The translations under genes and the position numbers were made by a program. Under the pieces are notes generated by a model. It had not been told where the DNA came from. It ran no database searches and saw nothing but the letters and a program-made list of their open reading frames with translations. A DNA stretch of 64,000 nt. Origin: a virus. The DNA lies in IMG/VR virus record IMGVR_UViG_3300002026_000003; one strand, 5' to 3'. Positions 1 through 63,343 of this stretch are shown piece after piece; the first letter of the stretch is position 1, and each line of letters opens with the position of its first letter.

Positions 1-183
1 CGGGCTGTAGTTAGTTCTATTCGTAGCGAAAGCCGTCTTGCCTATGGCACAAGTGGTCATGGAGTGGTTGGTTCCACTAGCGCACCGCAAGCAATGGCTA
101 AAGATTATTATGCGCCCTATGGTGGGTATCATCAGGGCATGCAGTTACAGACAGGAAAGGGGTTCTACACATGGTACAAGTAG
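1..183 (+). CDS. hypothetical protein, 3' fragment (start lies upstream of window)
   Basis: Frame 1 is open from base 1 to TAG 181-183 (...YYAPYGGYHQGMQLQTGKGFYTWYK*). Co-oriented with all other genes; next ORF start overlaps by 13 nt. Confidence 0.5.
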   Translation, partial: RAVVSSIRSESRLAYGTSGHGVVGSTSAPQAMAKDYYAPYGGYHQGMQLQTGKGFYTWYK

Positions 184-28752: not shown

Positions 28753-30360
28753 ATGGCTACCAACTACCAAGAGCTAGAACAAGAAATACGTGATGCTAAG
28801 TCTTTTGTATCTGCTAGCCAAGCTACGGCTACTGCACTTAAATCTTCTCTTGCTACAACCAGTGCTAGCGTAGCAGAAAGTTTGGTGACTAGTGAGGCTA
28901 GTATATTGTCTGCATACTCTAGTGAAAATGTAGCAAGAGACGCTGTTAAGAATAAGTTTATAGCCTACAAAGAGACTAGTGTATTTGCGGCTACGCTACT
29001 AGACAACATATTTGCCGAAGCTGGAGTACTAATAGATACGCTAGCAGGAAAAGTAGCAGACTCGCTAGTGGGTAGGTATAGGCTCCACGAGCAACGCAAT
29101 AAGCAGGTAAAAACACTTAGCAGGTTAGCTAGAGCTACCTACATCGTAGACCTGTACGCTAAACTACTAGAACAGTACGATAGGTTACTGAGTGCTATGA
29201 GCGAGCATTCGTCTATGGTAGGTAGCGAGTTCGCTAATAAACTTAGTGAGGAGGTCATTAAGTCAGATAACCTAATAGTGGCGTGGAATGATACCAAAAA
29301 GAACGAATACGATAGTGCTACCTTAGTATATAAGTCAGGAATGGTGGCGTACGTATTAGGATTACGTAAGGATACGTTTTACTGGCCTAGACCTACTGAC
29401 GAGAGGGTACGTAGCAGGGAGGATAATATAGCTAACCTTCACAATGCACAAAAAACATACGCTCCTGCTTGCGGATTGCTTAACTATAAAAGATTTCCGT
29501 ATAAGCGTTTTGTCGATGGAGAGACAGTAACGTTCACCCCTATATTTACTAAGCAAAAAGCATTACCTGACGCAGTTCCTCCTGTACTGGAGAAGGATTG
29601 GGGTATATGCGTACGCACTGTAACTCCGTATATAAACCCACTAGAGAGTACTCTAGAGTCTGAGGCTAAGTATATATTTAACATAAAGTACGATGGGTAC
29701 CTAGACGCATTTAGTATAACGTCGTGGGATGATATAGGTATTCCAGCTACCGATAGCGAACCTGCTCAGTACCCTAAACTAACCTATAGCAGGCACGTAC
29801 CTAGAGCTATGGTTAGCTATTCAAAGGCCCCATTTAGTAAAGTAGGACAGGCTTTTAGCATTCAAAAAACTGGAATACCTATACCAGAGACAGTACTTCC
29901 TGCCGATATTAACGCTCCTGTGTACGGTGAGTACACTAACGATATAGTACTGAGCTACATGCAGCAGTCAATGCTAGAGGAGGTGCCTAATCCGCCCACT
30001 AACGTAGTTGGTACGGTAGTTGGTAGTGGTCAAGTATCGGTAGCATTTACGCCTCCAGCGGTAAACGTGGGCGGTAGAATACCTGTCGGATATAAAGTTA
30101 TTTCGTACCCTGAGGGAATAGAGGCCACAGGCCTTAGAAGCCCTGTATTGGTTAGGGAGCTTCCCAATGGAAAAACATACGTATTCAGGGTAATGACTGA
30201 CAACAATAGATGGTACAGCCGAGCCTCAGACCCTAGTGAGCCAGTTCTTCTACTGTCTACACAAACGGACGAATCTAAGGCACTTGAAGATAATAAGAGT
30301 AAGTTAGATGTATTTCGGGCTACTAGGTCTACTGAGCTAGCCAGAAGGGCAGCTTTGTAG
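28753..30360 (+). CDS. structural protein with C-terminal fibronectin type III-like domain (535 aa)
   Basis: PPTNVVGTVVGSGQVSVAFTPP...GYKVISYPEG...GKTYVFRVMTDNNRWYSRASDPSEPV (about nt 29986-30250) fits the FN3 pattern. Confidence 0.55.
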   Translation: MATNYQELEQEIRDAKSFVSASQATATALKSSLATTSASVAESLVTSEASILSAYSSENVARDAVKNKFIAYKETSVFAATLLDNIFAEAGVLIDTLAGKVADSLVGRYRLHEQRNKQVKTLSRLARATYIVDLYAKLLEQYDRLLSAMSEHSSMVGSEFANKLSEEVIKSDNLIVAWNDTKKNEYDSATLVYKSGMVAYVLGLRKDTFYWPRPTDERVRSREDNIANLHNAQKTYAPACGLLNYKRFPYKRFVDGETVTFTPIFTKQKALPDAVPPVLEKDWGICVRTVTPYINPLESTLESEAKYIFNIKYDGYLDAFSITSWDDIGIPATDSEPAQYPKLTYSRHVPRAMVSYSKAPFSKVGQAFSIQKTGIPIPETVLPADINAPVYGEYTNDIVLSYMQQSMLEEVPNPPTNVVGTVVGSGQVSVAFTPPAVNVGGRIPVGYKVISYPEGIEATGLRSPVLVRELPNGKTYVFRVMTDNNRWYSRASDPSEPVLLLSTQTDESKALEDNKSKLDVFRATRSTELARRAAL

Positions 30361-53684: not shown

Positions 53685-55340
53685 ATGGACATAACTAGCA
53701 GTCACGCACAACGCCATTCTGAAAGAGACTTTTCAGTGAAGTTCTCCACGTACGTAGATTCGGGGGCAGGGATCATCCATGTGCGCACCAATGAGATAAT
53801 CCGCGCATCTATTGCCGTACGTACTCAGGCCATTCTGGATAACGGAACGGTCAAGGAGTGGGATGTAGTTAATGGTTTCCGTACCTACACCAAGGATAAT
53901 GTAGATAACGTACTGATTGCAGGCGATGCCAATATTGACATTGGCTCTGCCTTCTCTTCCCCGTTGGATCAGTTGCGCAATTCATCCAGCGAGGATGGTG
54001 TGTTTTACTTCGTCTATGTAAATCCCCATGTATTCATGGAGAACAACCCGACACTGACACAATTGCTTATTACCTATAGCCATGCACTACCATCCAAGAA
54101 TGTAATTGTGGTATTGATTACTCCAGATGCACCATTACCTACTGAGGTAGATGCGAATATCCTCTCTATCCATTTTGAGCCACCCGGACTAGGTGAGTTG
54201 AAGGACGCGCTCAGCGGTATCCTAGACGGGGTTAGCGGAGACTTTGAGGATGGAGTGGACATGGACGAAGCTGCCGTAGAGAAAGTATGCTACGTTGGCG
54301 CAGGTATGACTAAGAACCACTTTGAGATGTATGCTGCTTTGTCTATAGTAGAGGCGGGTCGCGCTGGCAAGGATTCAGTCAATGTCGATGACCTTATCAA
54401 AGGCGTATCGATAGGCAAGACTGATGTAGTCAACTCCAACGATATCTTAGAACTGTATCCCTCCACCGATATCAATAACGTAGGCGGTCTGGAGAACTTG
54501 AAGGATTGGGTACAGAAACGGCGTAGCTGCTACTCGGATGCGGCTAAGGACTTTGGTATTGAGCCACCTAAGGGAGTGGTCTTGGTAGGCCCTCCCGGTA
54601 CTGGCAAGAGTCTTATCGCCAAGGCTATCTCATCTGAGCTTGGGGTTCCTCTAGTACGTCTAGACTTTGGGCGGGTATTCAACTCGCTGGTAGGGGCCTC
54701 AGAGCAACGCATGAGAACGGCGCTGAAGATGGTAGAGATGATGAGTCCTTGCGTACTATTCTGCGACGAGATAGACAAGGGTCTAGGCGGCATTGGCGGT
54801 AGCGGGGATAGCGGTACCAGCAACAGGGTACTAGGCTCGTTCCTTACTTGGCTACAGGACTGCCAGCATCCAGTATTTGTCATGGTAACTGCCAACAACG
54901 TAACAGGACTTCCGCCAGAGATGCTTCGCCGTGGCCGCTTTGATGCTATCTTCTCTACGTCTTTGCCTAACTCTAAAGACAGGCGCGAGGTACTACGCAT
55001 CCATCTGAAGTTGCGTAAGCGTAAGCTGGAGAGCTTTAATAAGGACGACGTTAATGAGATTGTTAATCTCTCTGAAGGATATGTACCCGCAGAGATTGAA
55101 TCTGCCGTAAAGGATGCTCTGGTTGACGCGTACAATGCGGACGAAGAGATGGGTATGCAGCATGTCAAGAAAGCATTACTGTCTATGGTTCCGTTGTCTA
55201 AGGCCTTCGCTAGACAGATTCAGGAAATGAATGAGTGGGCAAAAGCAAACGCAACGCCGGCAGGCATCGACTCAAGTTCTGCTACAGAGACAAAGGTAGC
55301 AAATGCTCGGCGTGTCAGTACTAGGAGCAGGGCGAGATAA
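53685..55340 (+). CDS. AAA+ ATPase (classic AAA, Ycf46/FtsH-like module)
   Basis: GVVLVGPPGTGKSLIAKA (Walker A), VLFCDEIDK (Walker B), TANNVTGLPPEMLRRGRFD (SRH/Arg fingers). Confidence 0.85.
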   Translation: MDITSSHAQRHSERDFSVKFSTYVDSGAGIIHVRTNEIIRASIAVRTQAILDNGTVKEWDVVNGFRTYTKDNVDNVLIAGDANIDIGSAFSSPLDQLRNSSSEDGVFYFVYVNPHVFMENNPTLTQLLITYSHALPSKNVIVVLITPDAPLPTEVDANILSIHFEPPGLGELKDALSGILDGVSGDFEDGVDMDEAAVEKVCYVGAGMTKNHFEMYAALSIVEAGRAGKDSVNVDDLIKGVSIGKTDVVNSNDILELYPSTDINNVGGLENLKDWVQKRRSCYSDAAKDFGIEPPKGVVLVGPPGTGKSLIAKAISSELGVPLVRLDFGRVFNSLVGASEQRMRTALKMVEMMSPCVLFCDEIDKGLGGIGGSGDSGTSNRVLGSFLTWLQDCQHPVFVMVTANNVTGLPPEMLRRGRFDAIFSTSLPNSKDRREVLRIHLKLRKRKLESFNKDDVNEIVNLSEGYVPAEIESAVKDALVDAYNADEEMGMQHVKKALLSMVPLSKAFARQIQEMNEWAKANATPAGIDSSSATETKVANARRVSTRSRAR

Positions 55341-55350
55341 GGAGGCAAAA

Positions 55351-55366
55351 ATGCAATCGATTGCAA
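55351..55366. repeat. motif copy 23
   Basis: ATGCAATCGATTGCAA (1 mismatch). Position 1-3 is the start codon (MQSIAI). Confidence 0.8.
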
Positions 55367-55959
55367 TTGGTTATGGCAAAGTGACTTTCTCTACGGCATC
55401 CGCGACACTCGCGGGTTTCGTAGTGGAGGCCCCTTTCATCCGCACACTAACGTCAAAGAAGCTGCCTAAGATAGGCGGCACTATGCGTATCCCGGTAAGC
55501 AGCCATCCTGAGATTGATGGTTGGTTGTTTCAGGACACGGTACATGCACCTGACGGCACTATCGTTATGGTGCAGATGCAGTACAAGTACAGAGGTTCTG
55601 GTTTGCGGGATGGGGCTATATTCGTACGTACCCGTACTGAGGGTAGCGGATTGTTGATTGCGGCTAAACTACCAAGTGATCCGCGCTCTACTATGGGTAC
55701 TAATAGGCATCCGCTATTCGCAGGGTGGGGCGATATTATGACGGTAGAAGAACTAGCTAAGTGCGGTATTGAGCCTCCCAAGAATTTTATCAGCGCATTC
55801 ATGGAGCCTGAGGAAATCGATGAGTGCTTTGACATAACGGTTACCAGACCCCCAGTATCACTACCTCCCTTGGAAGAGACCAGAGTTTCATCAAGTGGGG
55901 AAGAAGTGACGATACGGATAACCCGTACTCAGCGTAGAATGCGTATTCGTAGGACGTAG
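55351..55959 (+). CDS. hypothetical protein (202 aa)
   Basis: ATG 55351 follows AAGGAGG, so the track start at 55303 was rejected. The start codon and first 5 codons (MQSIAI) are motif copy 23. Confidence 0.6.
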   Translation: MQSIAIGYGKVTFSTASATLAGFVVEAPFIRTLTSKKLPKIGGTMRIPVSSHPEIDGWLFQDTVHAPDGTIVMVQMQYKYRGSGLRDGAIFVRTRTEGSGLLIAAKLPSDPRSTMGTNRHPLFAGWGDIMTVEELAKCGIEPPKNFISAFMEPEEIDECFDITVTRPPVSLPPLEETRVSSSGEEVTIRITRTQRRMRIRRT

Positions 55960-55960
55960 A

Positions 55961-55998
55961 CATACAGATTTGACAAAGAAATCTATATGTGCGATAAT
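55961..55998 (+). promoter_or_regulatory. strong sigma70-type promoter upstream of DUF1257/DUF2997 genes
   Basis: TTGACA (55970-55975)-17 nt-GATAAT (55993-55998). About 28 nt are near-identical to the element at 63344-63381. Confidence 0.6.
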
Positions 55999-56028
55999 AC
56001 CTAGTGCGGTAATTTTAAGGAGAGGCAT

Positions 56029-56475
56029 ATGAGCCATACTACAGAAGTGAATGATATCGTATTCTCTGATATCGAAGCGTTGAAAGCAGCAGTGAATGAA
56101 CTTAACACTAGAGGAGTTAAGTGCAGTCTAGTTAAGGGCGGCACCCCACGCGCTTACTACCAGAACCAGCAAGGTATGGGCGCTGCGGATTACACGCTTC
56201 AGTTGGCTGACTCCCCGTACGATATTGGTTTCTATCGGGACAACGCTAAGAAAGGCCTTGTAGCCCGTACTGATCTTTTCATGGGTCACGTATCACGGTT
56301 ACTTGGTGCGCAAGGCCAGACCGGGGAGAAAGCAGAACAGGCAGCACTAGGTAAGCTTTACCAGACCTACGCAATTCATGCCGCTACGCGTAAAGCAGTG
56401 CAGCAGGGTATGTCAGTAAAGCGGGTGAATAATTCGGACGGTAGCGTACGTCTTGTGGTTGGGGGTATTCGATAA
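56029..56475 (+). CDS. DUF1257-like protein
   Basis: MSHTTEVNDIVFSDIEALKAAVNELN...YDIGFYRD follows the remembered DUF1257 pattern (MSH..I...I.D...L..AL..L ... YDIGF). Confidence 0.55.
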   Translation: MSHTTEVNDIVFSDIEALKAAVNELNTRGVKCSLVKGGTPRAYYQNQQGMGAADYTLQLADSPYDIGFYRDNAKKGLVARTDLFMGHVSRLLGAQGQTGEKAEQAALGKLYQTYAIHAATRKAVQQGMSVKRVNNSDGSVRLVVGGIR

Positions 56476-56675
56476 TGGCTAAGCAGATCGTAATTGATAT
56501 TACCCCTGCCGGATCGGTAAAGGTAGATGCTCAGGGGTTCAATGGAGTTGGGTGTGACAAGGCCACTGAGATGATCGAGATTGCCATCGGTGGGGCTGGC
56601 GTAAAGAAGAAGACTAAGAAGCCTGAGTACTACGCACCGGCAGGACAAAAGGCATCCAATAAACTAGCGTTTTAA
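56475..56675 (+). CDS. DUF2997-like protein
   Basis: KQIVIDITPAGSVKVDAQGFNGVGCDKATEMIEIAIG follows the remembered DUF2997 pattern. TAATG coupling to the DUF1257-like gene. Confidence 0.55.
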   Translation: MAKQIVIDITPAGSVKVDAQGFNGVGCDKATEMIEIAIGGAGVKKKTKKPEYYAPAGQKASNKLAF

Positions 56676-56685
56676 GGGGTATAAC

Positions 56686-57081
56686 ATGGGCGAACTGGTC
56701 ATAGCTTTTGAGGTTGATGGTAGGCTGGAGGCGTTGCACTTAGACAAGTTTGATCTTGGCTTCCTTGGTGCTAAAAGTATTGCTAGGCAGTCAAGCATTG
56801 TCTGGAATGAGATGGCCCAGAATTGGGCTATACATTACCACGCTGGCGAGGAACGGGTTATGCACGAAAACCTAGACGGCTTCTCTGGGTATGATGAAGC
56901 GCGTGAGTTTGAGGTGCTATGGCTTAACAACTGTAGGCTGTATCAAGTAACCCCGGAAAGCTACCTAGGCCTTATGTACGCCGGCTACCTACGGTATGGT
57001 GATAAAACAGAGTGCTTCACCCTACCTGACGGTTCTTGTATAGGCGAAGCTTGCATGCACTGCGTTACCCATAAGACGTAG
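56686..57081 (+). CDS. hypothetical protein with C-terminal Cys cluster (131 aa)
   Basis: ORF track. C-terminus is CFTLPDGSCIGEACMHCVTHK. Confidence 0.55.
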   Translation: MGELVIAFEVDGRLEALHLDKFDLGFLGAKSIARQSSIVWNEMAQNWAIHYHAGEERVMHENLDGFSGYDEAREFEVLWLNNCRLYQVTPESYLGLMYAGYLRYGDKTECFTLPDGSCIGEACMHCVTHKT

Positions 57082-57084
57082 TGC

Positions 57085-57120
57085 AAAAAAATCCCCACCG
57101 AGATTTCTCTCAAGGTGGGG
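57085..57120 (-). terminator. hairpin that reads as an intrinsic terminator only on the minus strand
   Basis: AAAAAAAT-CCCCACC-(14 nt)-GGTGGGG. On the minus strand the 7-bp GC stem is followed by ATTTTTTT. No T-run follows it on the + strand. Confidence 0.3.
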
Positions 57121-57177
57121 TAATAGGGAGGAGGACTTGCAAGCAGTAGTGTATAACATAACCGGGGTACTTGCAAC

Positions 57178-58614
57178 ATGGCATCATTTGCGTATCAGGT
57201 AGAAGAAAAGAAAAAACGTGGTAGACCAGCAAAACGAATAGATAAACGGGTACGTAGCTATAAAGACATAGTAGCGGCACTGCCGCCAGAAGTAGGGAGC
57301 AAGCTGGTATTCAGTAGGGAAGTATTCGTCAAGTCATATGATCTGACGAAATGGTTGCGCGTATATGGCTTAGGGGTACTGAACCCGCAGGAGTTCTTGC
57401 TATTGCACTTCATATTCTCCCGCACTCTGCATTACGGAAAGCTAGCAGAGATGATTACGAAGGATCATTTTCTTCGTGGAGTATGGAGCGGCGATGAAGT
57501 TGTCTGCATGCCAATACGCACAAACCCAAACACACTGTACAAAACCATACGCAGTCTAGAAGAAAAAGGACTGATAACGGTAACCCCGATCCACCTACAG
57601 GGCCGTGACTTGCCCACTTTGTACGAAATTGCAATCGATTTCATTTTAGGTTTGCGTCCTAGTGAGGAATATATGAGCAAGCTTCGACAGCCCAAAGTAA
57701 AGAAAACTGCCGATGTTGTAGATTTTGAGGCCTTTAGGGCAGCAAAAATGGGCCTAATTGGTGGTACCAATTCGTACCACCTAGACGACAAACAGGTGGT
57801 ACCAATTCGTACCACAAATATAAGTAATATAAAAACAGAAGATAATAAAGTATTAGTTGCGTCGGCTTCGCCTAGCAACGAAGTCGCTTTGCGAGTGCGT
57901 AGAAAACCAAGAGCATCAAGCGGTTTTGAAATTGATTGCAATGCAAGTGCGCGAGATGTAATCAATCTTACTATCGAACGCAGTACTGCGAAGCGAGAGG
58001 CTAAGGTAGTACGGGCAGCGCAGGGAAGCGCGGTAGCGCTAGCTGATCTTAACGCTACTTGGAAGAAAGCCATGATTGCTGAATTCGGTACATGCACCGT
58101 TGCGGGGCTTACAGTTAAAGAGTTTGGCATGTTCAAGAGAATAGTAAAGACGCACGAGATAGCTTGCACATGGCTGGAGTTCTTTACTTGGGTAATTGGT
58201 AACTGGACACGCATAAACCGCGAGAGTCGTGAGTTCAACGAGTACAGGAAGAAAAAGAGTGGAGAATGGTCTATGAAGCAGGAGGACATGGTATTTCTAG
58301 GGAGCGAAGTACCTGACCTATTTATGACCATCAAAAACTTTGGAAAGCTTATTAAGCGCTATTCACAGCATTCGCTAGGTGTAGTAGTAGCTGGTAAGCG
58401 CGAAGATACTGAGGAAGTTAAACAGCTACGGCAGGAGCTAGCCTCTGCGCGTAAGGAGGCATCAACTAGCCAGCACCTACTAAGAAAGGCTATGACTGCG
58501 CGAGAGGAAAAGCCTGTAGCTAGAGTTGCGCCTAAGGTAAAGGCTAGAATAGTAAATCCAGACGTAGATACGTTCTTTGATGAACCTACGGAAACTTTGC
58601 CGAGGTGGAAATGA
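57178..58614 (+). CDS. putative replication initiator (winged-helix, O/DnaD-like)
   Basis: Basic N-terminus KKKRGRPAKR. LLLHFIFSRTLHYGK...NTLYKTIRSLEEKGLITV is winged-helix-like. Lies upstream of the helicase and contains iterons, an AT-rich tract and two motif copies. No obvious SD before the ATG. Confidence 0.5.
   Translation: MASFAYQVEEKKKRGRPAKRIDKRVRSYKDIVAALPPEVGSKLVFSREVFVKSYDLTKWLRVYGLGVLNPQEFLLLHFIFSRTLHYGKLAEMITKDHFLRGVWSGDEVVCMPIRTNPNTLYKTIRSLEEKGLITVTPIHLQGRDLPTLYEIAIDFILGLRPSEEYMSKLRQPKVKKTADVVDFEAFRAAKMGLIGGTNSYHLDDKQVVPIRTTNISNIKTEDNKVLVASASPSNEVALRVRRKPRASSGFEIDCNASARDVINLTIERSTAKREAKVVRAAQGSAVALADLNATWKKAMIAEFGTCTVAGLTVKEFGMFKRIVKTHEIACTWLEFFTWVIGNWTRINRESREFNEYRKKKSGEWSMKQEDMVFLGSEVPDLFMTIKNFGKLIKRYSQHSLGVVVAGKREDTEEVKQLRQELASARKEASTSQHLLRKAMTAREEKPVARVAPKVKARIVNPDVDTFFDEPTETLPRWK
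57629..57644. repeat. motif copy 24
   Basis: TTGCAATCGATTTCAT (1 mismatch). Inside the initiator gene (EIAIDFI), 116 nt upstream of iteron 1. Confidence 0.8.
57760..57780 (+). repeat. iteron 1 (21-bp perfect direct repeat)
   Basis: GGTGGTACCAATTCGTACCAC, containing GGTAC-N6-GTACC inverted arms. Confidence 0.85.
57795..57815 (+). repeat. iteron 2 (21-bp perfect direct repeat)
   Basis: Identical GGTGGTACCAATTCGTACCAC 35 nt downstream of iteron 1, so it is translated in a different frame. Confidence 0.85.
57816..57856 (+). other. AT-rich tract adjacent to iterons (candidate DNA-unwinding element)
   Basis: aaatataagtaatataaaaacagaagataataaagtattag. Much more AT-rich than the surrounding coding sequence. 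Confidence 0.5.
57926..57941. repeat. motif copy 25
   Basis: TTGAAATTGATTGCAA (1 mismatch). Inside the initiator gene (FEIDCN), about 70 nt downstream of the AT-rich tract. Confidence 0.75.
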
Positions 58615-59174
58615 GCAACGATCTTATAGTACAGCAACTCCGCAATGCGGGGATACCTAGCGAAGCTCTAAAGACCACGCTTCCTAAAGAGGGGCTGGTA
58701 GAGATGCGTGAGTACGTAGACACTGAGGCGTACAAAGAGAAGAGGATTGTGCATATACATGCTTCTTCTACTAGGACTACCCAGTACGTCGAGAAAGCTG
58801 AGCTTGCTTTCTATCTGCTAGCTAAGGAACTTGCCCTCATGGGTGAGGACGTATATTGCTGCGACCTAGTGGATATACACACCGCACTATTTAAGGAGAC
58901 TGACGAGGCGTACGCTATTGCTAGTAGGGTGTATGACAAGTCTTCTGGCTTTATAGCGATAAGGCATTTCCATGATAGGGGAGGTAGGGTGGATCAGTTT
59001 ATGACACCCTACGAGATTGCTTACTTTACCTCGTGGCTGATTAGGCGCTATCAAGACGGGGCAGGGTTCATACTACTAGGTGCATCACCAATAATGGATG
59101 CTATTGATTGGTGGCCGGCATCCTTCATGGGGTACTTGCGTAGTAGGTCATTAGCTTTTGAGGTGAGAAAATGA
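58611..59174 (+). CDS. hypothetical replication-module protein (187 aa), possible helicase loader
   Basis: ATGA overlap at 58611-58614, so the track's GTG start at 58605 is less likely. Assigned by position between initiator and helicase only. Confidence 0.45.
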   Translation: MSNDLIVQQLRNAGIPSEALKTTLPKEGLVEMREYVDTEAYKEKRIVHIHASSTRTTQYVEKAELAFYLLAKELALMGEDVYCCDLVDIHTALFKETDEAYAIASRVYDKSSGFIAIRHFHDRGGRVDQFMTPYEIAYFTSWLIRRYQDGAGFILLGASPIMDAIDWWPASFMGYLRSRSLAFEVRK

Positions 59175-60451
59175 GCGATGGGTTAAAGCTACTAGGGGCG
59201 ATAATAGATACAGGCAGCGTACATACGCTACGTGATCTACAGGAAGAAATATTCATCGAAGAGGAAGTAGCGCTGTATGCGATGATGCGTAGGCACTATC
59301 GCAGATACGGGCAGATACCTGCCATAGCGACGGTAGAAGAGGAACTAGGTATTACGATACCTGAGGCCCCAGAGACCGTAGATTATTACATAAAGAGGGT
59401 ACATGACCGGCGTCTATACAGTGTCATAAGAGAGAAGTTTAATTCACTGAAAGAAAGCCTGCGAGACTTCGACATGGATAGGTCGAAGGATTTGATTGAC
59501 GAGATGCGCCTAGCTACTCGTGTAAATCACAGTAACTCAGACATACGTTCCTTAAGCGAGGCCTCTGTAGACGTACTACGCGAGTACGACTATGCCCACG
59601 AAAACCCCGGTGTGTCTGGCGTACCTACGGGATGGGTTAGATTCGATAACCGAGTAGGTGGGTACCAGCCGGGGGATTTAGTATCGTGGGTGGCTAGACC
59701 TAACATGGGTAAGACGTACATCATGCTGAAGCAGGCATCGGCGGCTTGGCAGTTTGGGTATAGTGTATTGGTAGTAACTATGGAGATGACTATCGAACAG
59801 ATAGCTAGACGAGTGAATGCCATACAGGCTGGTCTTAATCCAGACTTTATCAGGAAGGGTACTCTATCGCAGTATGCCCGTAACCGCTTACAAAACTATG
59901 TCGATACGATGGTGGGGGCTGAAAGATTCAAGATGTTCTCAGGTGGCCTACGTAAGAAGGTTAGCGACATAGAGGTACTTATTCAGGAGTACAACCCAGA
60001 CATAGTATTTATTGATGGCGTGTACATGATGCAACCTGAGTCGAAGAGAGCAACGTCGAAGGTAGAGAAGGTCTCTGAAGTCTATGACGAGCTTAAGAAG
60101 CTAACGCTAGCGCACAACATACCTGTAGTAGTAACCACACAGTTTAACCGTACGGCAGGAAAGAAAGGTAAGGAAGGGTCACTAGAGAACATAGCCTTCA
60201 GTGACGCTATCTCTACACACAGTTCACTAGTAATATCGCTCAGAGAAGGGGAAGGATCAGACCTCATAAAGAAAACTCAGCGCATAGCTACGTTTCTTAA
60301 AGGACGCGAGGGTGAGGAGGGAGACTTCAAGCTGCACTATAGTTTCTCGCCTATCAACTTCGATGAGGTATTCAATCCAGAAACTGATAGCGAAAACGGA
60401 GATGGGATAATAATACAGCAGACACAAAGAAACGTAGACTTCACTGTTTAA
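59171..60451 (+). CDS. replicative DNA helicase (DnaB-like)
   Basis: SGVPTGW..FD...GG..PGDLV.W.ARPNMGKTYIMLKQA (Walker A), IVFIDGVYMM (Walker B-like), VVTTQFNR. Confidence 0.8.
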   Translation: MSDGLKLLGAIIDTGSVHTLRDLQEEIFIEEEVALYAMMRRHYRRYGQIPAIATVEEELGITIPEAPETVDYYIKRVHDRRLYSVIREKFNSLKESLRDFDMDRSKDLIDEMRLATRVNHSNSDIRSLSEASVDVLREYDYAHENPGVSGVPTGWVRFDNRVGGYQPGDLVSWVARPNMGKTYIMLKQASAAWQFGYSVLVVTMEMTIEQIARRVNAIQAGLNPDFIRKGTLSQYARNRLQNYVDTMVGAERFKMFSGGLRKKVSDIEVLIQEYNPDIVFIDGVYMMQPESKRATSKVEKVSEVYDELKKLTLAHNIPVVVTTQFNRTAGKKGKEGSLENIAFSDAISTHSSLVISLREGEGSDLIKKTQRIATFLKGREGEEGDFKLHYSFSPINFDEVFNPETDSENGDGIIIQQTQRNVDFTV

Positions 60452-60479: not shown

Positions 60480-60668
60480 ATGTCTTTTAACACACACTTA
60501 CTCAGCATGGAAGAGGTATGGTTTGCTAGAGAGCATCCATACGATATCAAGGTAGTTGGTGTAAAAAAGTTGGTTGCTGAAATAGAGGATATGGAAGACG
60601 CGCTGAAGGATAAGCATGACCAGCTTAAGGTGGCAGTAGGTGAAATGACTACAAGGATGAAAAAATGA
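60480..60668 (+). CDS. hypothetical protein (62 aa)
   Basis: AAGGAG upstream, preceded by motif copy 26. ATGA overlap with the polymerase start. Confidence 0.5.
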   Translation: MSFNTHLLSMEEVWFAREHPYDIKVVGVKKLVAEIEDMEDALKDKHDQLKVAVGEMTTRMKK

Positions 60669-63343
60669 TAGACAAGAAACACTGTCTTGGTTGCCCGTTA
60701 GATGGGATATCGGCACCATCTGCTACAAAAGGCAATACCAAGGCTAAGTTTATGGTGGTTGTTGATACACCAAGTAGTTTTAACGCGGCCAAAGGTAGAT
60801 TACTGTCGGAGCGGTCTAGCGGGGTGTTTGCAGAACACATGGACGCCGCTGGTTTTGATACTAGTGAGTTTTCGTTTGTGCCACAAGTCAGATGCCCACA
60901 CGACGCAGACCAGATTACTACCAAGGAAGTACGTGAGATTCAGAAACATTGTCGTGAGCATTTCTTGGACGATGTTTTTGAGCAGAAGCCTGAAATGATT
61001 ATCCCTATCGGTGCAGAGCCAGCTAGGCAGGTATTCGGTAGGGCAGTAAAGATAACCAAAGTTCGCGGAGTGGCTGAGTTCAACGAAGAACACTCGTGCA
61101 TGGTGATGGCTTTACTAAACCCCGGACAGGTGGTTATGTACCCACAGCATGCGCCTATATTCGCGGCAGACTGCCAGACCCTACGTAGAGTAGTTGATAG
61201 TGGTTATGACGTACTGGCTGCGGGTAATGCGCTACTAGGTGACTACGAGTACATAGACGATCTAGAGTTTCTGATAGAGCAAGAACCTTCCCTACTATTC
61301 TTCGATACTGAGAATACTAGTCTTGAGTATTTCAAGAAAGGCCCAGACGATGCTAGGGAATACGACCCTAAGAGACATGGTAAGGAATTCAACCCAAGTG
61401 CAGCTATTCTTACTATGCAGTTCTGTATTGAGCCGGGGAAGGCATACATGCTGGTATGGGATCACCCAGAGAAACCTATAGCCATGCGCAAGAAGCGTAA
61501 GCTGGTAGAGCAGTTAGGTAGGCTATTGTGCAATCCTAAAACTAGAGTTCTTGGGCAGAACCTGAAATACGATAACAACTACCTGTTTGAGCAAACCGGT
61601 GTGCGCTTCAAGATAGGTGGCGATACTCTTATGCTCGCTGCCCTCCTAGACGAGAACATGATAAGCAAGAGTCAGGATGTACTGGTTAAGCATTACGTAC
61701 CGGAGATGGCTGGGTATGCAGATGCGTTCAACGCTTCTGTAGATAAGTCTAGAATGTGGGAGGTTCCTCTAGCCAAGCTTATAGGCTACGGCTGCGGCGA
61801 CGTAGACTCAGGCTACATGCTGTATAAGGCAATGTTCAAGGAGATGCGTAAGGATGACCGGCTTATTGAACACTACCGCAGGGTATCACTGCCGGGGCTT
61901 AACACATTCGCGGCGGTAGAGACTAGCGGCATACATATTGACCAGCAGGCCTTATCTGACTTTGAAGCACTCATGGAAGTATCTGTTGCTCAGCAAGAGG
62001 CAGACCTACTAGAGCAGGTACCTAAATCAATCAAGCGTAAGCACATAGATAAGGGACTGAAGTTTAGTCGGTCAGACTTTGTACTGGATATATTATTCAG
62101 GCACAAGGATGGATTCAGGCTACGCCCGAAGGTATATACAGCCAAGACGGCAAAGCTGCCTGCGGATAAGCGGGTGCCTAGTACATCGTCTAAAGACCAC
62201 CTACCGTACTTTTTCGATGACTGTCCTTTTACCTTGCAGCTTTCCCAGTATGTGAAAGACTCTAGGTTGCTTGGTACCAACATCAAGGGATTCCAGAACA
62301 AGTATATCCATGATGGTTTGGTGAGGCCCGTATATAGCCTATGGACTACCGTTACCGGCAGGTCATCATCTGAGAACCCTAACGGGCAGAACTTCCCCAA
62401 GAGAGGCCCTAACGCTACTGCATACCGGAGAATCTTCGTACCACCTCCGGGTTATTACGTACTGGAGGCGGACTTGTCTCAAGCAGAGCTACGTATTGCG
62501 GCGGATATGGCTAGTGATAGGACTATGCTTGGTATCTACCAGCAAAAGGGCGATATCCATACAGCCACGGCATTGATTACGATGGGTACTGATATGGAGC
62601 ATTTTAAGTTGTTGCCCAAGGCTGAGCAAAAATCTGCGAGACAGAAGGCCAAGGCTGTTAACTTTGGTTTCATTTACGGCATGGGCTGGAGAAAGTTTAT
62701 CGGCTATGCTAAGACGCAGTATGGCGTGGAGTTTACGGAGCTAGAGGCGCAACGGATACGCACTGCGTTCTTTGAGAAGTACCACGGATTGCCTGCATGG
62801 CACGATTCAACTAGAGAGGCGGCACACAGGGACGGTATGGTTCGTTCCTACTCTGGGCGGATACGTCACCTACCTATGATTCATTCTGAGGATCAAGGCG
62901 TAGAGTCGGAAGCAGGCCGGCAGGCTATCAATAGCCCTGTGCAGGAGTTTGCTTCATCGCTAGGCATCATGGCTATCGGTAGGCTGCATGACGAGATAGA
63001 CCCTGAGTACCTAGCACCCATAGCGTTCGTACATGACGCTATCTACTGCTACGTACCAGCTAAGTACCTTGAGTGGGGAGCCAAGACGTTGAAGCGATAC
63101 ATGGAGAGTAACCCCCTAGAAGAGTGGTTTAACCTACGCATGAAATGCCCCATCATTGCTGATGTTAGCTTTGGTCTTAACTTTGGTGACACTAACGAGA
63201 TGGAGGGGTTATCTCTGGATGAGCCTTATGACTTCGGCAGGTTCTATGATGTTGAGCAGCAGACCGGTGTAGAGGTACCTAAGCAGAGAACACCACCCAA
63301 TAGGGGCTTACGCAAGACAGACCCGTATGGGCTACCTGTTTAG
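60665..63343 (+). CDS. family A DNA polymerase with N-terminal uracil-DNA-glycosylase-like domain and 3'-5' exonuclease
   Basis: N-terminus CLGCPL...AKFMVVVDTPS resembles a UDG family-4 fold. Exo motifs: FFDTENTSLE, NLKYDNNYL, YGCGDVD. Pol motifs: A LEADLSQAELRIAA, B RQKAKAVNFGFIYGMG, C FVHDAIY. Confidence 0.85.
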   Translation: MIDKKHCLGCPLDGISAPSATKGNTKAKFMVVVDTPSSFNAAKGRLLSERSSGVFAEHMDAAGFDTSEFSFVPQVRCPHDADQITTKEVREIQKHCREHFLDDVFEQKPEMIIPIGAEPARQVFGRAVKITKVRGVAEFNEEHSCMVMALLNPGQVVMYPQHAPIFAADCQTLRRVVDSGYDVLAAGNALLGDYEYIDDLEFLIEQEPSLLFFDTENTSLEYFKKGPDDAREYDPKRHGKEFNPSAAILTMQFCIEPGKAYMLVWDHPEKPIAMRKKRKLVEQLGRLLCNPKTRVLGQNLKYDNNYLFEQTGVRFKIGGDTLMLAALLDENMISKSQDVLVKHYVPEMAGYADAFNASVDKSRMWEVPLAKLIGYGCGDVDSGYMLYKAMFKEMRKDDRLIEHYRRVSLPGLNTFAAVETSGIHIDQQALSDFEALMEVSVAQQEADLLEQVPKSIKRKHIDKGLKFSRSDFVLDILFRHKDGFRLRPKVYTAKTAKLPADKRVPSTSSKDHLPYFFDDCPFTLQLSQYVKDSRLLGTNIKGFQNKYIHDGLVRPVYSLWTTVTGRSSSENPNGQNFPKRGPNATAYRRIFVPPPGYYVLEADLSQAELRIAADMASDRTMLGIYQQKGDIHTATALITMGTDMEHFKLLPKAEQKSARQKAKAVNFGFIYGMGWRKFIGYAKTQYGVEFTELEAQRIRTAFFEKYHGLPAWHDSTREAAHRDGMVRSYSGRIRHLPMIHSEDQGVESEAGRQAINSPVQEFASSLGIMAIGRLHDEIDPEYLAPIAFVHDAIYCYVPAKYLEWGAKTLKRYMESNPLEEWFNLRMKCPIIADVSFGLNFGDTNEMEGLSLDEPYDFGRFYDVEQQTGVEVPKQRTPPNRGLRKTDPYGLPV

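What the first reader, a model, noticed from the sequence alone, without database searches (positions are those of the whole stretch)
57629..57941. Candidate replication origin inside the initiator gene: two perfect 21-bp iterons, an AT-rich tract and flanking palindromic motifs
GGTGGTACCAATTCGTACCAC occurs twice (57760-57780 and 57795-57815) with a 35-bp period. Because 35 is not a multiple of 3, the identical DNA is translated in two different frames (GGTNSYH versus VVPIRTT). Conservation is therefore at the DNA level, not the protein level. Each iteron contains inverted arms GGTAC-N6-GTACC. Immediately downstream is a roughly 40-bp strongly AT-rich tract (57816-57856). The arrangement is bracketed by motif copies 24 (57629) and 25 (57926). 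These are the only pair of motif copies within about 300 bp of each other, and both are in the rarer +2 coding frame. Iterons plus an AT-rich unwinding element inside the initiator's own coding sequence is the classical arrangement of phage lambda ori within gene O.
Basis: partly seen in the sequence, partly recalled or inferred. Interest (0 to 1): 0.75.

Follow-up and report, generated by a model that had tools for sequence, protein, structure and literature searches.

The report
Phage replication origin inside initiator gene
This is very probably the phage's replication origin, built like the classic phage lambda origin and sitting inside the gene for its own initiator protein; it is a well-supported new example of a known design, not a new kind of element.

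Summary

- **The element.** Two identical 21-bp units (57760-57780 and 57795-57815) lie 35 bp apart. Each is an 18/20 palindrome and is unique in the window. The lowest-GC, least stable 40-mer of the whole 64 kb (57816-57855, 12.5% GC) follows directly.
- **Relatives.** In 13 of 14 related phage genomes (protein identity 26-60%, including Pseudomonas phage SM1) the homologous gene has the same layout at the same position, but with different repeat sequences. The fourteenth is a degenerate version.
- **DNA-level selection.** Synonymous-codon identity is 0.74 across this stretch and 0.42 in the rest of the gene. The encoded peptide is a predicted disordered linker.
- **The protein.** The host ORF has no direct Pfam or PHROG hit. 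It is nevertheless a divergent lambda-O-like initiator, shown by a winged-helix N-domain, an hhalign match to the O signature, and distant relatives that hit Phage_rep_O and "replication initiation O-like" families.
- **Specificity.** Residues at the predicted recognition helix change together with the repeat half-site.
- **Control.** The same scan recovers the annotated origin in lambda.

No experiment exists. Verdict: new member of a known kind, moderate interest.

The parts
57178..58614 (+). Gene for the 478-aa replication initiator, a divergent lambda-O-like protein. It has a winged-helix N-domain (aa ~26-170), a disordered linker (aa ~190-253), a helical C-domain (aa ~258-442), and an acidic tail ending ...DTFF..E..LPRWK.
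   Evidence: ORF. No direct family hit. AF2 domains. Fold matches to O-like, replisome-organizer and wHTH proteins. hhalign to lambda O aa 35-76. Distant relatives hit PF04492 and O-like PHROGs.
57629..57644 (.). Upstream flanking copy of the dispersed 16-bp palindrome (TTGCAATCGATTTCAT), about 150 bp left of the iteron pair.
   Evidence: ATT GCA ATC GAT TTC is fixed at all synonymous sites in 6 genomes while neighbouring codons vary; synonymous identity is 0.725 against 0.424. It is absent in L009, L010 and L011.
57760..57781 (.). Iteron 1, a dyad-symmetric unit: GGTGGTAC-CAATTC-GTACCACC.
57795..57815 (.). Iteron 2, identical to iteron 1 over 21 bp, with centres exactly 35.0 bp apart.
   Evidence: The same 35.0-bp centre spacing occurs in 7 genomes with different half-sites.
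57816..57856 (.). AT-rich tract, A-rich on the top strand; candidate DNA unwinding element. It ends in the conserved block GAAGATAATAAAG.
   Evidence: Lowest-GC and least stable 40-mer of the 64-kb window. It is the GC minimum of the gene in all homologs. Conserved DNA block.
57856..57879 (.). GC-rich imperfect palindrome GTTGC-N14-GCAAC at the right edge of the AT tract.
   Evidence: The sequence is conserved across relatives, with variant stems in L007 and L011. It is energetically weak: dG -3 to -8 kcal/mol, z +0.3 to -2.9. Role uncertain.
57926..57941 (.). Downstream flanking copy of the dispersed palindrome (TTGAAATTGATTGCAA), about 145 bp right of the iteron pair.
   Evidence: It is positionally conserved in essentially all relatives, including SM1 (TGCAAGCGTTTGCA, 130 bp after its iterons). 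Synonymous identity 0.754.
58605..59174 (+). Conserved 189-aa ORF between the initiator and the helicase; a candidate helicase loader by position only.
   Evidence: Present in all relatives. No family hit.
59171..60451 (+). DnaB-like replicative helicase.
   Evidence: PF03796 6.5e-31 and phrog_19 8.6e-59.
60665..63343 (+). UDG-domain/family A DNA polymerase.
   Evidence: PF00476 1.4e-59 and phrog_17 8.8e-115.

Best explanation
The span 57629-57941 is a lambda-type, theta-mode replication origin embedded in the linker-coding part of the phage's own initiator gene. All mechanism steps below are inferred. (1) The 478-aa protein is made, and dimers of its N-terminal winged-helix domain bind the two identical 20-bp dyads, which are held exactly 35 bp apart. 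(2) This small nucleoprotein complex, together with negative supercoiling, melts the directly adjacent 40-bp tract of 12.5% GC. (3) The C-terminal helical domain and acidic tail recruit the phage DnaB-like helicase encoded two genes downstream, possibly through the conserved 189-aa ORF acting as loader. (4) The phage primase and family A polymerase then take over. What the sequence data show is narrower: the repeats, the AT tract, a GC-rich imperfect palindrome and two flanking 16-bp palindromes are DNA-level conserved elements overlaid on a poorly conserved, disordered protein linker.
For: The element matches the description exactly and is unique in the window. The AT tract is the least stable 40-mer in 64 kb. 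In all 12 homologous genes first examined, the longest local direct repeat lies at aa ~170-206 and the gene's GC minimum follows directly. Periods are 35 (seven genomes), 26, 25, 24, 24 and 22, so 10 of the 12 are not multiples of 3. Of two out-of-sample genomes, one fits fully (period 25) and one is degenerate. The units are dyads whose arms change together between lineages, while the two copies within each genome stay identical. Synonymous-codon identity is 0.74 in the core and 0.42 elsewhere, and none of 307 other blocks of equal size exceeds 0.52. The encoded peptide is disordered, with pLDDT about 30. The protein is O-like. Residues at the N-cap of the predicted recognition helix track the half-site: NPN with GGTAC, GPS with GGTTC, xRD/E with GGTGTC, ERT with CTGCA and S(T/A)HT with GTGCA. 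This holds across lineages that are not each other's closest relatives. In the complete SM1 genome the iteron is unique and its AT tract is in the lowest 0.04% of windows. As a positive control, the same scan finds the annotated iterons, AT tract and palindrome of lambda. Two iterons plus the AT tract are the minimal lambda fragment competent for unwinding (PMC7466680). SPP1 oriL is likewise embedded in its organizer gene, upstream of the loader and helicase genes (PMC5737612).
Against: There are no experimental data of any kind. Direct Pfam and PHROG scans of the ORF are below threshold, and hhalign to lambda O has only 33% probability. One relative, L013, has only an imperfect repeat with no dyad. 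The region can also fold strongly as RNA or single-stranded DNA. Cumulative GC skew shows no inflection here, although none is expected in a genome whose genes almost all lie on one strand. The window covers 64 kb of a 102-kb contig, so a second origin elsewhere cannot be excluded. Binding of the dyads by this protein is inferred from covariation in a small sample with no phylogenetic correction.
Confidence: 0.8

Rival explanations
1. It is a transcriptional control site and not an origin. A dimeric regulator, possibly the ORF's own product acting in autoregulation, would bind two palindromic operators, and the AT tract would be an internal promoter for the downstream helicase and polymerase genes.
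For: Palindromic sites in pairs are typical operators. The dispersed palindromes flanking the region sit elsewhere at gene junctions, often just after terminator-like hairpins and just before ribosome-binding sites, as promoter or operator sites would.
Against: No sigma-70-like promoter is found in 57000-58700, where shuffles give 2.2. The site is in the middle of a gene that overlaps the next ORF. The dyad occurs nowhere else in the window or in SM1, whereas regulators usually have several targets. The layout and the protein family match a known origin class.
Confidence: 0.07
2. It is an RNA or single-strand structural element in the initiator mRNA, for example hairpins that pause ribosomes or control mRNA stability, and not a duplex DNA binding site.
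For: The region folds at -27.8 kcal/mol with z = -4.5, and the arms of each unit covary between lineages.
Against: The predicted fold pairs copy 1 with copy 2, and the asymmetric centres mismatch. Those centres are kept in direct, not inverted, orientation in every genome: CAATTC/CAATTC, GAAACC/GAAACC, CAAATG/CAAATG, AAAC/AAAT. An RNA hairpin would not require two identical copies within each genome at a fixed 35-bp spacing. Arm mismatches show no G-U wobble bias. There is no Rfam family match. It does not explain the extreme AT tract or the O-like host protein.
Confidence: 0.05
3. It is another kind of DNA site served by repeats plus AT-rich DNA, such as a partition centromere, a packaging site or a recombination site.
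For: Such sites also use short repeats next to AT-rich DNA. SM1 encodes a ParB-like protein.
Against: It is embedded in an O-like initiator gene directly upstream of the helicase and polymerase genes, not near terminase, integrase or par genes. The half-site covaries with the initiator's own DNA-binding domain.
Confidence: 0.05
4. It is a neutral accident: a slipped-strand duplication in a tolerant, disordered linker, with low GC arising from Lys/Asn/Ile-rich composition.
For: The peptide is disordered and poorly conserved, so it would tolerate insertions.
Against: A 35-bp duplication would break the reading frame. The units are palindromes. Position and spacing are conserved while the sequence changes. 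Synonymous sites are strongly constrained.
Confidence: 0.02

Closest known systems
Phage lambda ori within gene O (and lambdoid/Stx phage origins)
   Same: The origin lies in the middle of the initiator's own coding sequence. The iterons are 18-20-bp imperfect inverted repeats with periods that are not multiples of 3. An AT-rich, A-rich-top-strand tract starts directly after the last iteron, and a palindrome follows (PMC7466680). The initiator has an N-terminal DNA-binding domain with the R-T-Y-G-x-x-K...I-T..Q signature and two domains joined by a linker. Two iterons plus the AT tract suffice for unwinding in lambda (PMC7466680).
   Different: There are only two iterons (lambda 4, Stx phages 6), and they are spaced 35 bp centre to centre instead of 20-24 bp. 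The iteron sequences are unrelated. The protein is 478 aa against 299 aa, falls below the Pfam threshold, and has a different, larger C-domain. The helicase is phage-encoded instead of host DnaB recruited via P. Two copies of a genome-wide 16-bp palindrome flank the origin, with no known lambda counterpart.
Bacillus phage SPP1 oriL within gene 38 (G38P-G39P-G40P)
   Same: The origin is embedded in the replisome-organizer gene. A small number of repeat boxes are bound by the organizer next to an AT-rich DUE. The gene order is organizer, small protein, DnaB-type helicase (PMC5737612).
   Different: There is no detectable similarity to the G38P family (PF09524) at reportable thresholds. No second origin (an oriR equivalent) was found in the window or in SM1. 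ORF189 has no similarity to known loaders.
Iteron-plasmid origins (RepA/RepE/pi type)
   Same: A winged-helix initiator binds direct repeats next to an AT-rich DUE (general knowledge; review PMC4980987 was listed but not read).
   Different: Plasmid iterons lie outside the rep gene, are usually not dyads, and are bound by monomers. No Rep_3-type match was found.

Membership tests
lambda-type origin embedded in the initiator gene | The element lies inside the coding sequence of the replication initiator. | tested here: met
   The element is at codons 151-255 of ORF 57178-58614. The ORF is assigned to the O-like initiators.
lambda-type origin embedded in the initiator gene | Two or more iterons, each an imperfect inverted repeat of about 18-20 bp. 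| tested here: met
   Two identical 21-bp units, each 18/20 palindromic.
lambda-type origin embedded in the initiator gene | An AT-rich unwinding tract directly adjacent to the iterons. | tested here: met
   57816-57855 starts 1 nt after iteron 2 and is the lowest-GC, least stable 40-mer in 64 kb. It is conserved in all 14 genomes.
lambda-type origin embedded in the initiator gene | A palindrome on the far side of the AT tract (as in lambda). | tested here: inconclusive
   GTTGC...GCAAC is conserved in sequence, but its folding energy is not consistently better than shuffles.
lambda-type origin embedded in the initiator gene | The initiator protein binds the iterons. | not testable with these tools
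   Indirect support only: recognition-helix residues covary with the half-site.
lambda-type origin embedded in the initiator gene | Replication actually initiates here. | not testable with these tools
   This needs marker-frequency analysis, 2D gels or a plasmid replication assay.
Phage_rep_O (PF04492) / O-like initiator proteins | A match to the family model at its curated threshold. | tested here: not met
   No hit at E <= 0.01. Only 5 of 17 members match, at E >= 0.035. No PHROG hit.
Phage_rep_O (PF04492) / O-like initiator proteins | An N-terminal winged-helix domain alignable with the lambda O signature segment. | tested here: met
   hhalign aligns aa 58-99 with O aa 35-76, pairwise E 4.7e-4 but probability 33%. 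The wHTH fold appears. BFVD matches labelled GpO N-terminal (2.7e-4) and replication protein O (4.7e-3) are.
Phage_rep_O (PF04492) / O-like initiator proteins | Linked to recognised members through intermediate sequences. | tested here: met
   The profile search finds 1263 relatives. Of 100 distant ones, 13 hit PF04492 (best 9.1e-17) and many hit 'replication initiation O-like' PHROGs (phrog_678: 19 members, 1e-21).
SPP1 G38P-type replisome organizer (PF09524) | Sequence membership in the family. | tested here: not met
   No PF09524 hit. Only weak fold matches to proteins carrying that C-terminal domain (E about 0.04).
SPP1 G38P-type replisome organizer (PF09524) | Gene order of organizer (containing the ori), loader, then DnaB-type helicase. 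| tested here: inconclusive
   The order ORF478, ORF189, DnaB is conserved, but ORF189 has no detectable loader similarity.

The most novel reading that the evidence does not exclude
The origin is a composite module. Besides the iterons and unwinding tract, it carries two copies of a genome-wide gene-junction palindrome (TTGMAATCGATTKCAA; TGCAARCGYTTGCA in SM1), conserved about 150 bp on either side of the iterons and under synonymous constraint. Elsewhere this palindrome sits between terminators or stop codons and the next gene's ribosome-binding site. It may therefore be the binding site or promoter element of a phage-encoded global factor. Its conserved placement around the origin would then hard-wire origin firing to that factor or to local transcription. 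That would be a built-in counterpart of lambda's 'transcriptional activation' of ori, which has not been described for lambda or SPP1.
Probability: 0.2. Interest if true: 0.6.

Novelty: new member of a known kind. Interest (0 to 1): 0.4.

Why it matters
The finding assigns a function to a conserved 'hypothetical protein', which some GenBank records mislabel as 'holin'. It also predicts the replication origin for an uncharacterised phage clade. That clade includes the Samunavirus phages of Pseudomonas aeruginosa, which appear in host-range and cocktail-design studies, and a set of metagenomic relatives. The family offers a natural series of initiator and iteron pairs: at least six half-site types with matching changes at the recognition helix, and a fixed 35-bp geometry. 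This could be used to study how origin specificity evolves when the site is also coding sequence. It does not change how origins are understood.

Tried and rejected
- Megablast of the region against the phage collection found nothing.
- A protein-pattern scan of IMG/VR found no relative.
- Two scans of GTDB genomes, one by protein profile and one by exact 56-mer, found nothing, so the host remains unknown.
- The source accession JFJP01 is not mentioned in the paper library.
- Direct Pfam, PHROG, NCBIfam and PDB sequence searches of the ORF gave only sub-threshold wHTH hints.
- The PDB fold search gave only weak wHTH matches.
- ORF189 could not be assigned.
- GC skew is uninformative because it rises monotonically.
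- The post-AT-tract stem was tested as a hairpin and is not convincingly stable, so I list it as a conserved sequence block only.
- I considered and rejected neutral duplication, an RNA hairpin, and a sigma-70 promoter.
- I looked for a fixed-distance promoter element beside the dispersed palindrome and found none.

Full report
**Observation.** The window contains GGTGGTACCAATTCGTACCAC twice, at 57760-57780 and 57795-57815, 35 bp apart. No other copy with up to 3 mismatches exists in the 64 kb, and shuffles give none. Each unit is a near-perfect 20-bp palindrome, GTGGTAC-N6-GTACCAC, with 18 of 20 positions symmetric. The two copies are translated in different frames, as GGTNSYH and VVPIRTT. 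One nucleotide after the second copy begins 57816-57855. At 12.5% GC it is the lowest-GC 40-mer of the entire window (next lowest 20%), and it is the least stable by nearest-neighbour energy, even though it is coding sequence. The 'motif copies' at 57629 and 57926 are 2-mismatch copies of a dispersed 16-bp palindrome, TTGCAATCGATTGCAA, which has 30 copies at up to 3 mismatches against 0.1 expected. Both lie at codon offset 1. The only correction is that they are the closest pair only at up to 2 mismatches.

**Context.** The element lies in ORF 57178-58614 (478 aa). A conserved 189-aa ORF follows, then a DnaB-like helicase and a UDG/family A polymerase. The nearest catalogued phages are the Pseudomonas aeruginosa Samunavirus group (SM1, PaMx31). 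Identity is 26% for this ORF and 49% for the polymerase, with the same gene order. The exact protein is recorded on a 102-kb contig of WGS record JFJP01. The host could not be identified.

**Comparative test.** I collected the DNA of 13 further homologs: SM1 and 12 metagenomic contigs, with 34-60% protein identity. In every one of the first 12 genes (window included), the longest short-range exact direct repeat lies at the homologous position (aa ~170-206). The gene's 40-nt GC minimum follows immediately. The repeat sequences differ between lineages, and 10 of the 12 periods are not multiples of 3.

| Genome | Repeat | Period (bp) |
|---|---|---|
| Window | GGTGGTACCAATTCGTACCAC | 35 |
| L003 | AGATGGTACGAAACCGTACCAT | 35 |
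| L011 | AGGGTGGTATCAAATGACACCACA | 35 |
| L004 | GAGTTGGATGGTGTCAAA | 35 |
| L009 | GGGGGTACTGCATAAAT | 24 |
| SM1 | TCCAAAATTTGGCACAC | 22 |

The BLASTP alignment places the SM1 and window repeats at corresponding residues. Of the two out-of-sample genomes, L014 fits completely: GTGCAA-GG-TTGCAC twice, period 25. L013 is degenerate: a 12/13 repeat with no dyad, but still a 35-bp period and followed by the GC minimum. In the seven genomes of the window's subgroup the two dyads are exactly 35.0 bp apart centre to centre, although the half-sites differ (GGTAC, GGTTC, GGTGTC). In the complete SM1 genome the iteron occurs nowhere else, and its AT tract is in the lowest 0.04% of windows.

**DNA-level selection.** I back-translated the protein alignment to codons and scored codon identity among pairs with the same amino acid. 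The value is 0.42 over most of the gene and 0.74 over window aa 184-235, where amino-acid identity is lowest. None of 307 other 75-column blocks exceeds 0.52. A nucleotide alignment shows three conserved blocks after the repeats: the AT tract ending in GAAGATAATGAAG, then TAGTTGC...GCAACGAA, then the 16-bp palindrome. Both flanking palindromes are also constrained at synonymous sites (0.72-0.75). For example, ATT GCA ATC GAT TTC is fixed in six genomes while the adjacent Pro, Thr and Glu codons vary. The AF2 model places all of this in a disordered linker (aa 190-253, pLDDT about 30) between a confident N-terminal alpha/beta domain (aa 26-170) and a helical C-domain. The GTTGC/GCAAC stem is not convincingly stable as a hairpin, so I treat it as a conserved block of unknown role.

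**The protein.**
- Sequence and profile searches against PDB and Pfam give only weak winged-helix hints, plus Phage_rep_O at E >= 0.035 in 5 of 17 members.
- Foldseek against PDB gives weak wHTH matches, including DnaD-N and RTP.
- Foldseek against viral models gives significant matches (to 1e-12), including proteins labelled lambda GpO N-terminal, replication protein O, replisome organizer and replication initiator.
- hhalign aligns aa 58-99 with lambda O aa 35-76, across the signature L..EF.VL.FI..RT..YGK..E.IT..QF (pairwise E 4.7e-4, probability 33%).
- An exhaustive profile search finds 1263 relatives. Of 100 distant ones, 13 hit PF04492 (best 9.1e-17) and many hit PHROGs annotated 'replication initiation O-like'.

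The ORF is therefore a divergent member of the O-like initiator superfamily, even though it fails the direct Pfam threshold.

**Link between protein and site.** Residues aligned to window positions 113-118, at the N-terminal end of the predicted recognition helix, track the half-site.

| Residues | Half-site | Genomes |
|---|---|---|
| NPN | GGTAC | window, L003 |
| GPS | GGTTC | L005 |
| x-R-D/E | GGTGTC | L002, L004, L006, and L011 (which is only 30-36% identical to the others) |
| ERT | CTGCA | L009, L010 |
| S(T/A)HT | GTGCA | L008, L014 |

The window and L003 are no closer overall (63%) than the window is to the GGTGTC group (62-63%). This suggests that the protein reads its own internal repeats. 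The sample is small and has no phylogenetic correction.

**Controls and rivals.**
- The same scan on lambda gene O returns the annotated iterons as the longest local repeats. Their periods (20, 23, 44 and 67) are not multiples of 3, and each is a TCCCTC...GAGGGA dyad. The GC minimum starts 3 nt after iteron 4, and a palindrome follows.
- No sigma-70-like promoter and no Rfam family explains the region.
- The region can fold strongly as RNA. However, the fold pairs copy 1 with copy 2, and the asymmetric centres are kept in direct orientation in every genome. That pattern fits oriented protein sites and not a hairpin.
- A neutral 35-bp duplication would break the reading frame and would not give palindromes, conserved spacing or synonymous constraint.

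**Comparison with known systems.** The layout matches ori-lambda: it lies in the middle of O, its iterons are 19-bp imperfect inverted repeats, an AT-rich tract is adjacent, and two iterons plus the AT tract are sufficient for unwinding (PMC7466680). It also matches SPP1 oriL, which is embedded in gene 38, has AB boxes plus a DUE, and is followed by loader and helicase genes (PMC5737612). The differences here are:
- two iterons at 35-bp spacing
- unrelated iteron sequences
- a larger, sub-threshold initiator
- a phage-encoded helicase
- two flanking copies of a genome-wide palindrome

I found nothing published on origins in this phage group.

**Verdict.** It is nearly certain that this is a functional DNA element overlaid on coding sequence. 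That it is the replication origin bound by the product of its host gene is the best explanation, at about 0.8 confidence. It is a new member of a known kind, of moderate interest.

Noticed in passing
whole window (e.g. 2930, 11572, 19355, 30362, 34186, 37574, 44887, 48649, 52233, 53599, 60452); SM1 genome L015/L016: A dispersed 16-bp palindrome, TTGMAATCGATTKCAA, has 30 copies at up to 3 mismatches. It has no conserved flanking context. Most copies sit at gene junctions. Some overlap or directly follow the upstream stop codon. Some follow terminator-like hairpins (11572, 52233, 53599). Some lie 0-5 nt before an AGGAG ribosome-binding site or supply the start codon (8470, 55351). Arm mismatches are not compensated, so it looks like a duplex site for a dimeric protein. 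SM1 has its own version, TGCAARCGYTTGCA (~33 copies, the most frequent 10-mers in its genome), often 1-2 nt after annotated stop codons. Function unknown.
   Followed up: partly
whole window: Restriction-site avoidance is extreme. Twenty-five of the 64 palindromic hexamers are completely absent, including every one containing GATC, plus CTGCAG, CAGCTG, CCATGG and ATGCAT, each expected 4-15 times. This suggests a host rich in restriction systems.
   Followed up: no
57208-57243 (aa 11-22 of the initiator): The N-terminus carries KKKRGRPAKRIDKR, a weak AT-hook match (Pfam AT_hook E 0.22). The RGR(P/T)A core is conserved in the four closest homologs. An AT-hook could contact the AT-rich tract, but this was not tested.
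   Followed up: no
58555-58611 (C-terminal tail of the initiator): A nearly invariant tail, IVNP..DTFF.D.D..LPEWK, follows a variable low-confidence segment. It looks like a short docking peptide, perhaps for the helicase or loader.
   Followed up: no
58605-59174: A conserved ORF of about 188 aa always lies between the initiator and the DnaB-like helicase in all relatives, including SM1 gp035. It has no detectable family. By position it is a candidate helicase loader.
   Followed up: partly
57130-57142 and 57164-57176: GGAGGACTTGCAA and GGGGTACTTGCAA are repeated 34 bp apart just upstream of the initiator start codon (D11). ACTTGCAA occurs only 3 times in the window. This may be a control site for the initiator gene.
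   Followed up: no
L001 6531-6573 (SM1 record ~29516-29558): The SM1 AT tract contains two perfect small hairpin-forming palindromes, AGAGATAC-TAC-GTATCTCT and CATCTTC-TAAA-GAAGATG. Its first iteron is bracketed by GAGGGGG/CCCCCTC.
   Followed up: no
GenBank records OQ383211, OL473897, OL622073, OL343755: The homolog of this initiator is annotated 'holin' and the polymerase 'putative phosphoesterase' in several deposited Samunavirus genomes. Both are probably annotation errors.
   Followed up: no
53685-56675 and relatives L002-L014: A conserved block lies upstream of the replication genes: an AAA+ ATPase (phrog_8638), a DUF1257 protein and a DUF2997 protein. Some relatives have HNH/NUMOD4 homing-endonuclease genes inserted there (L004, L009).
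   Followed up: no
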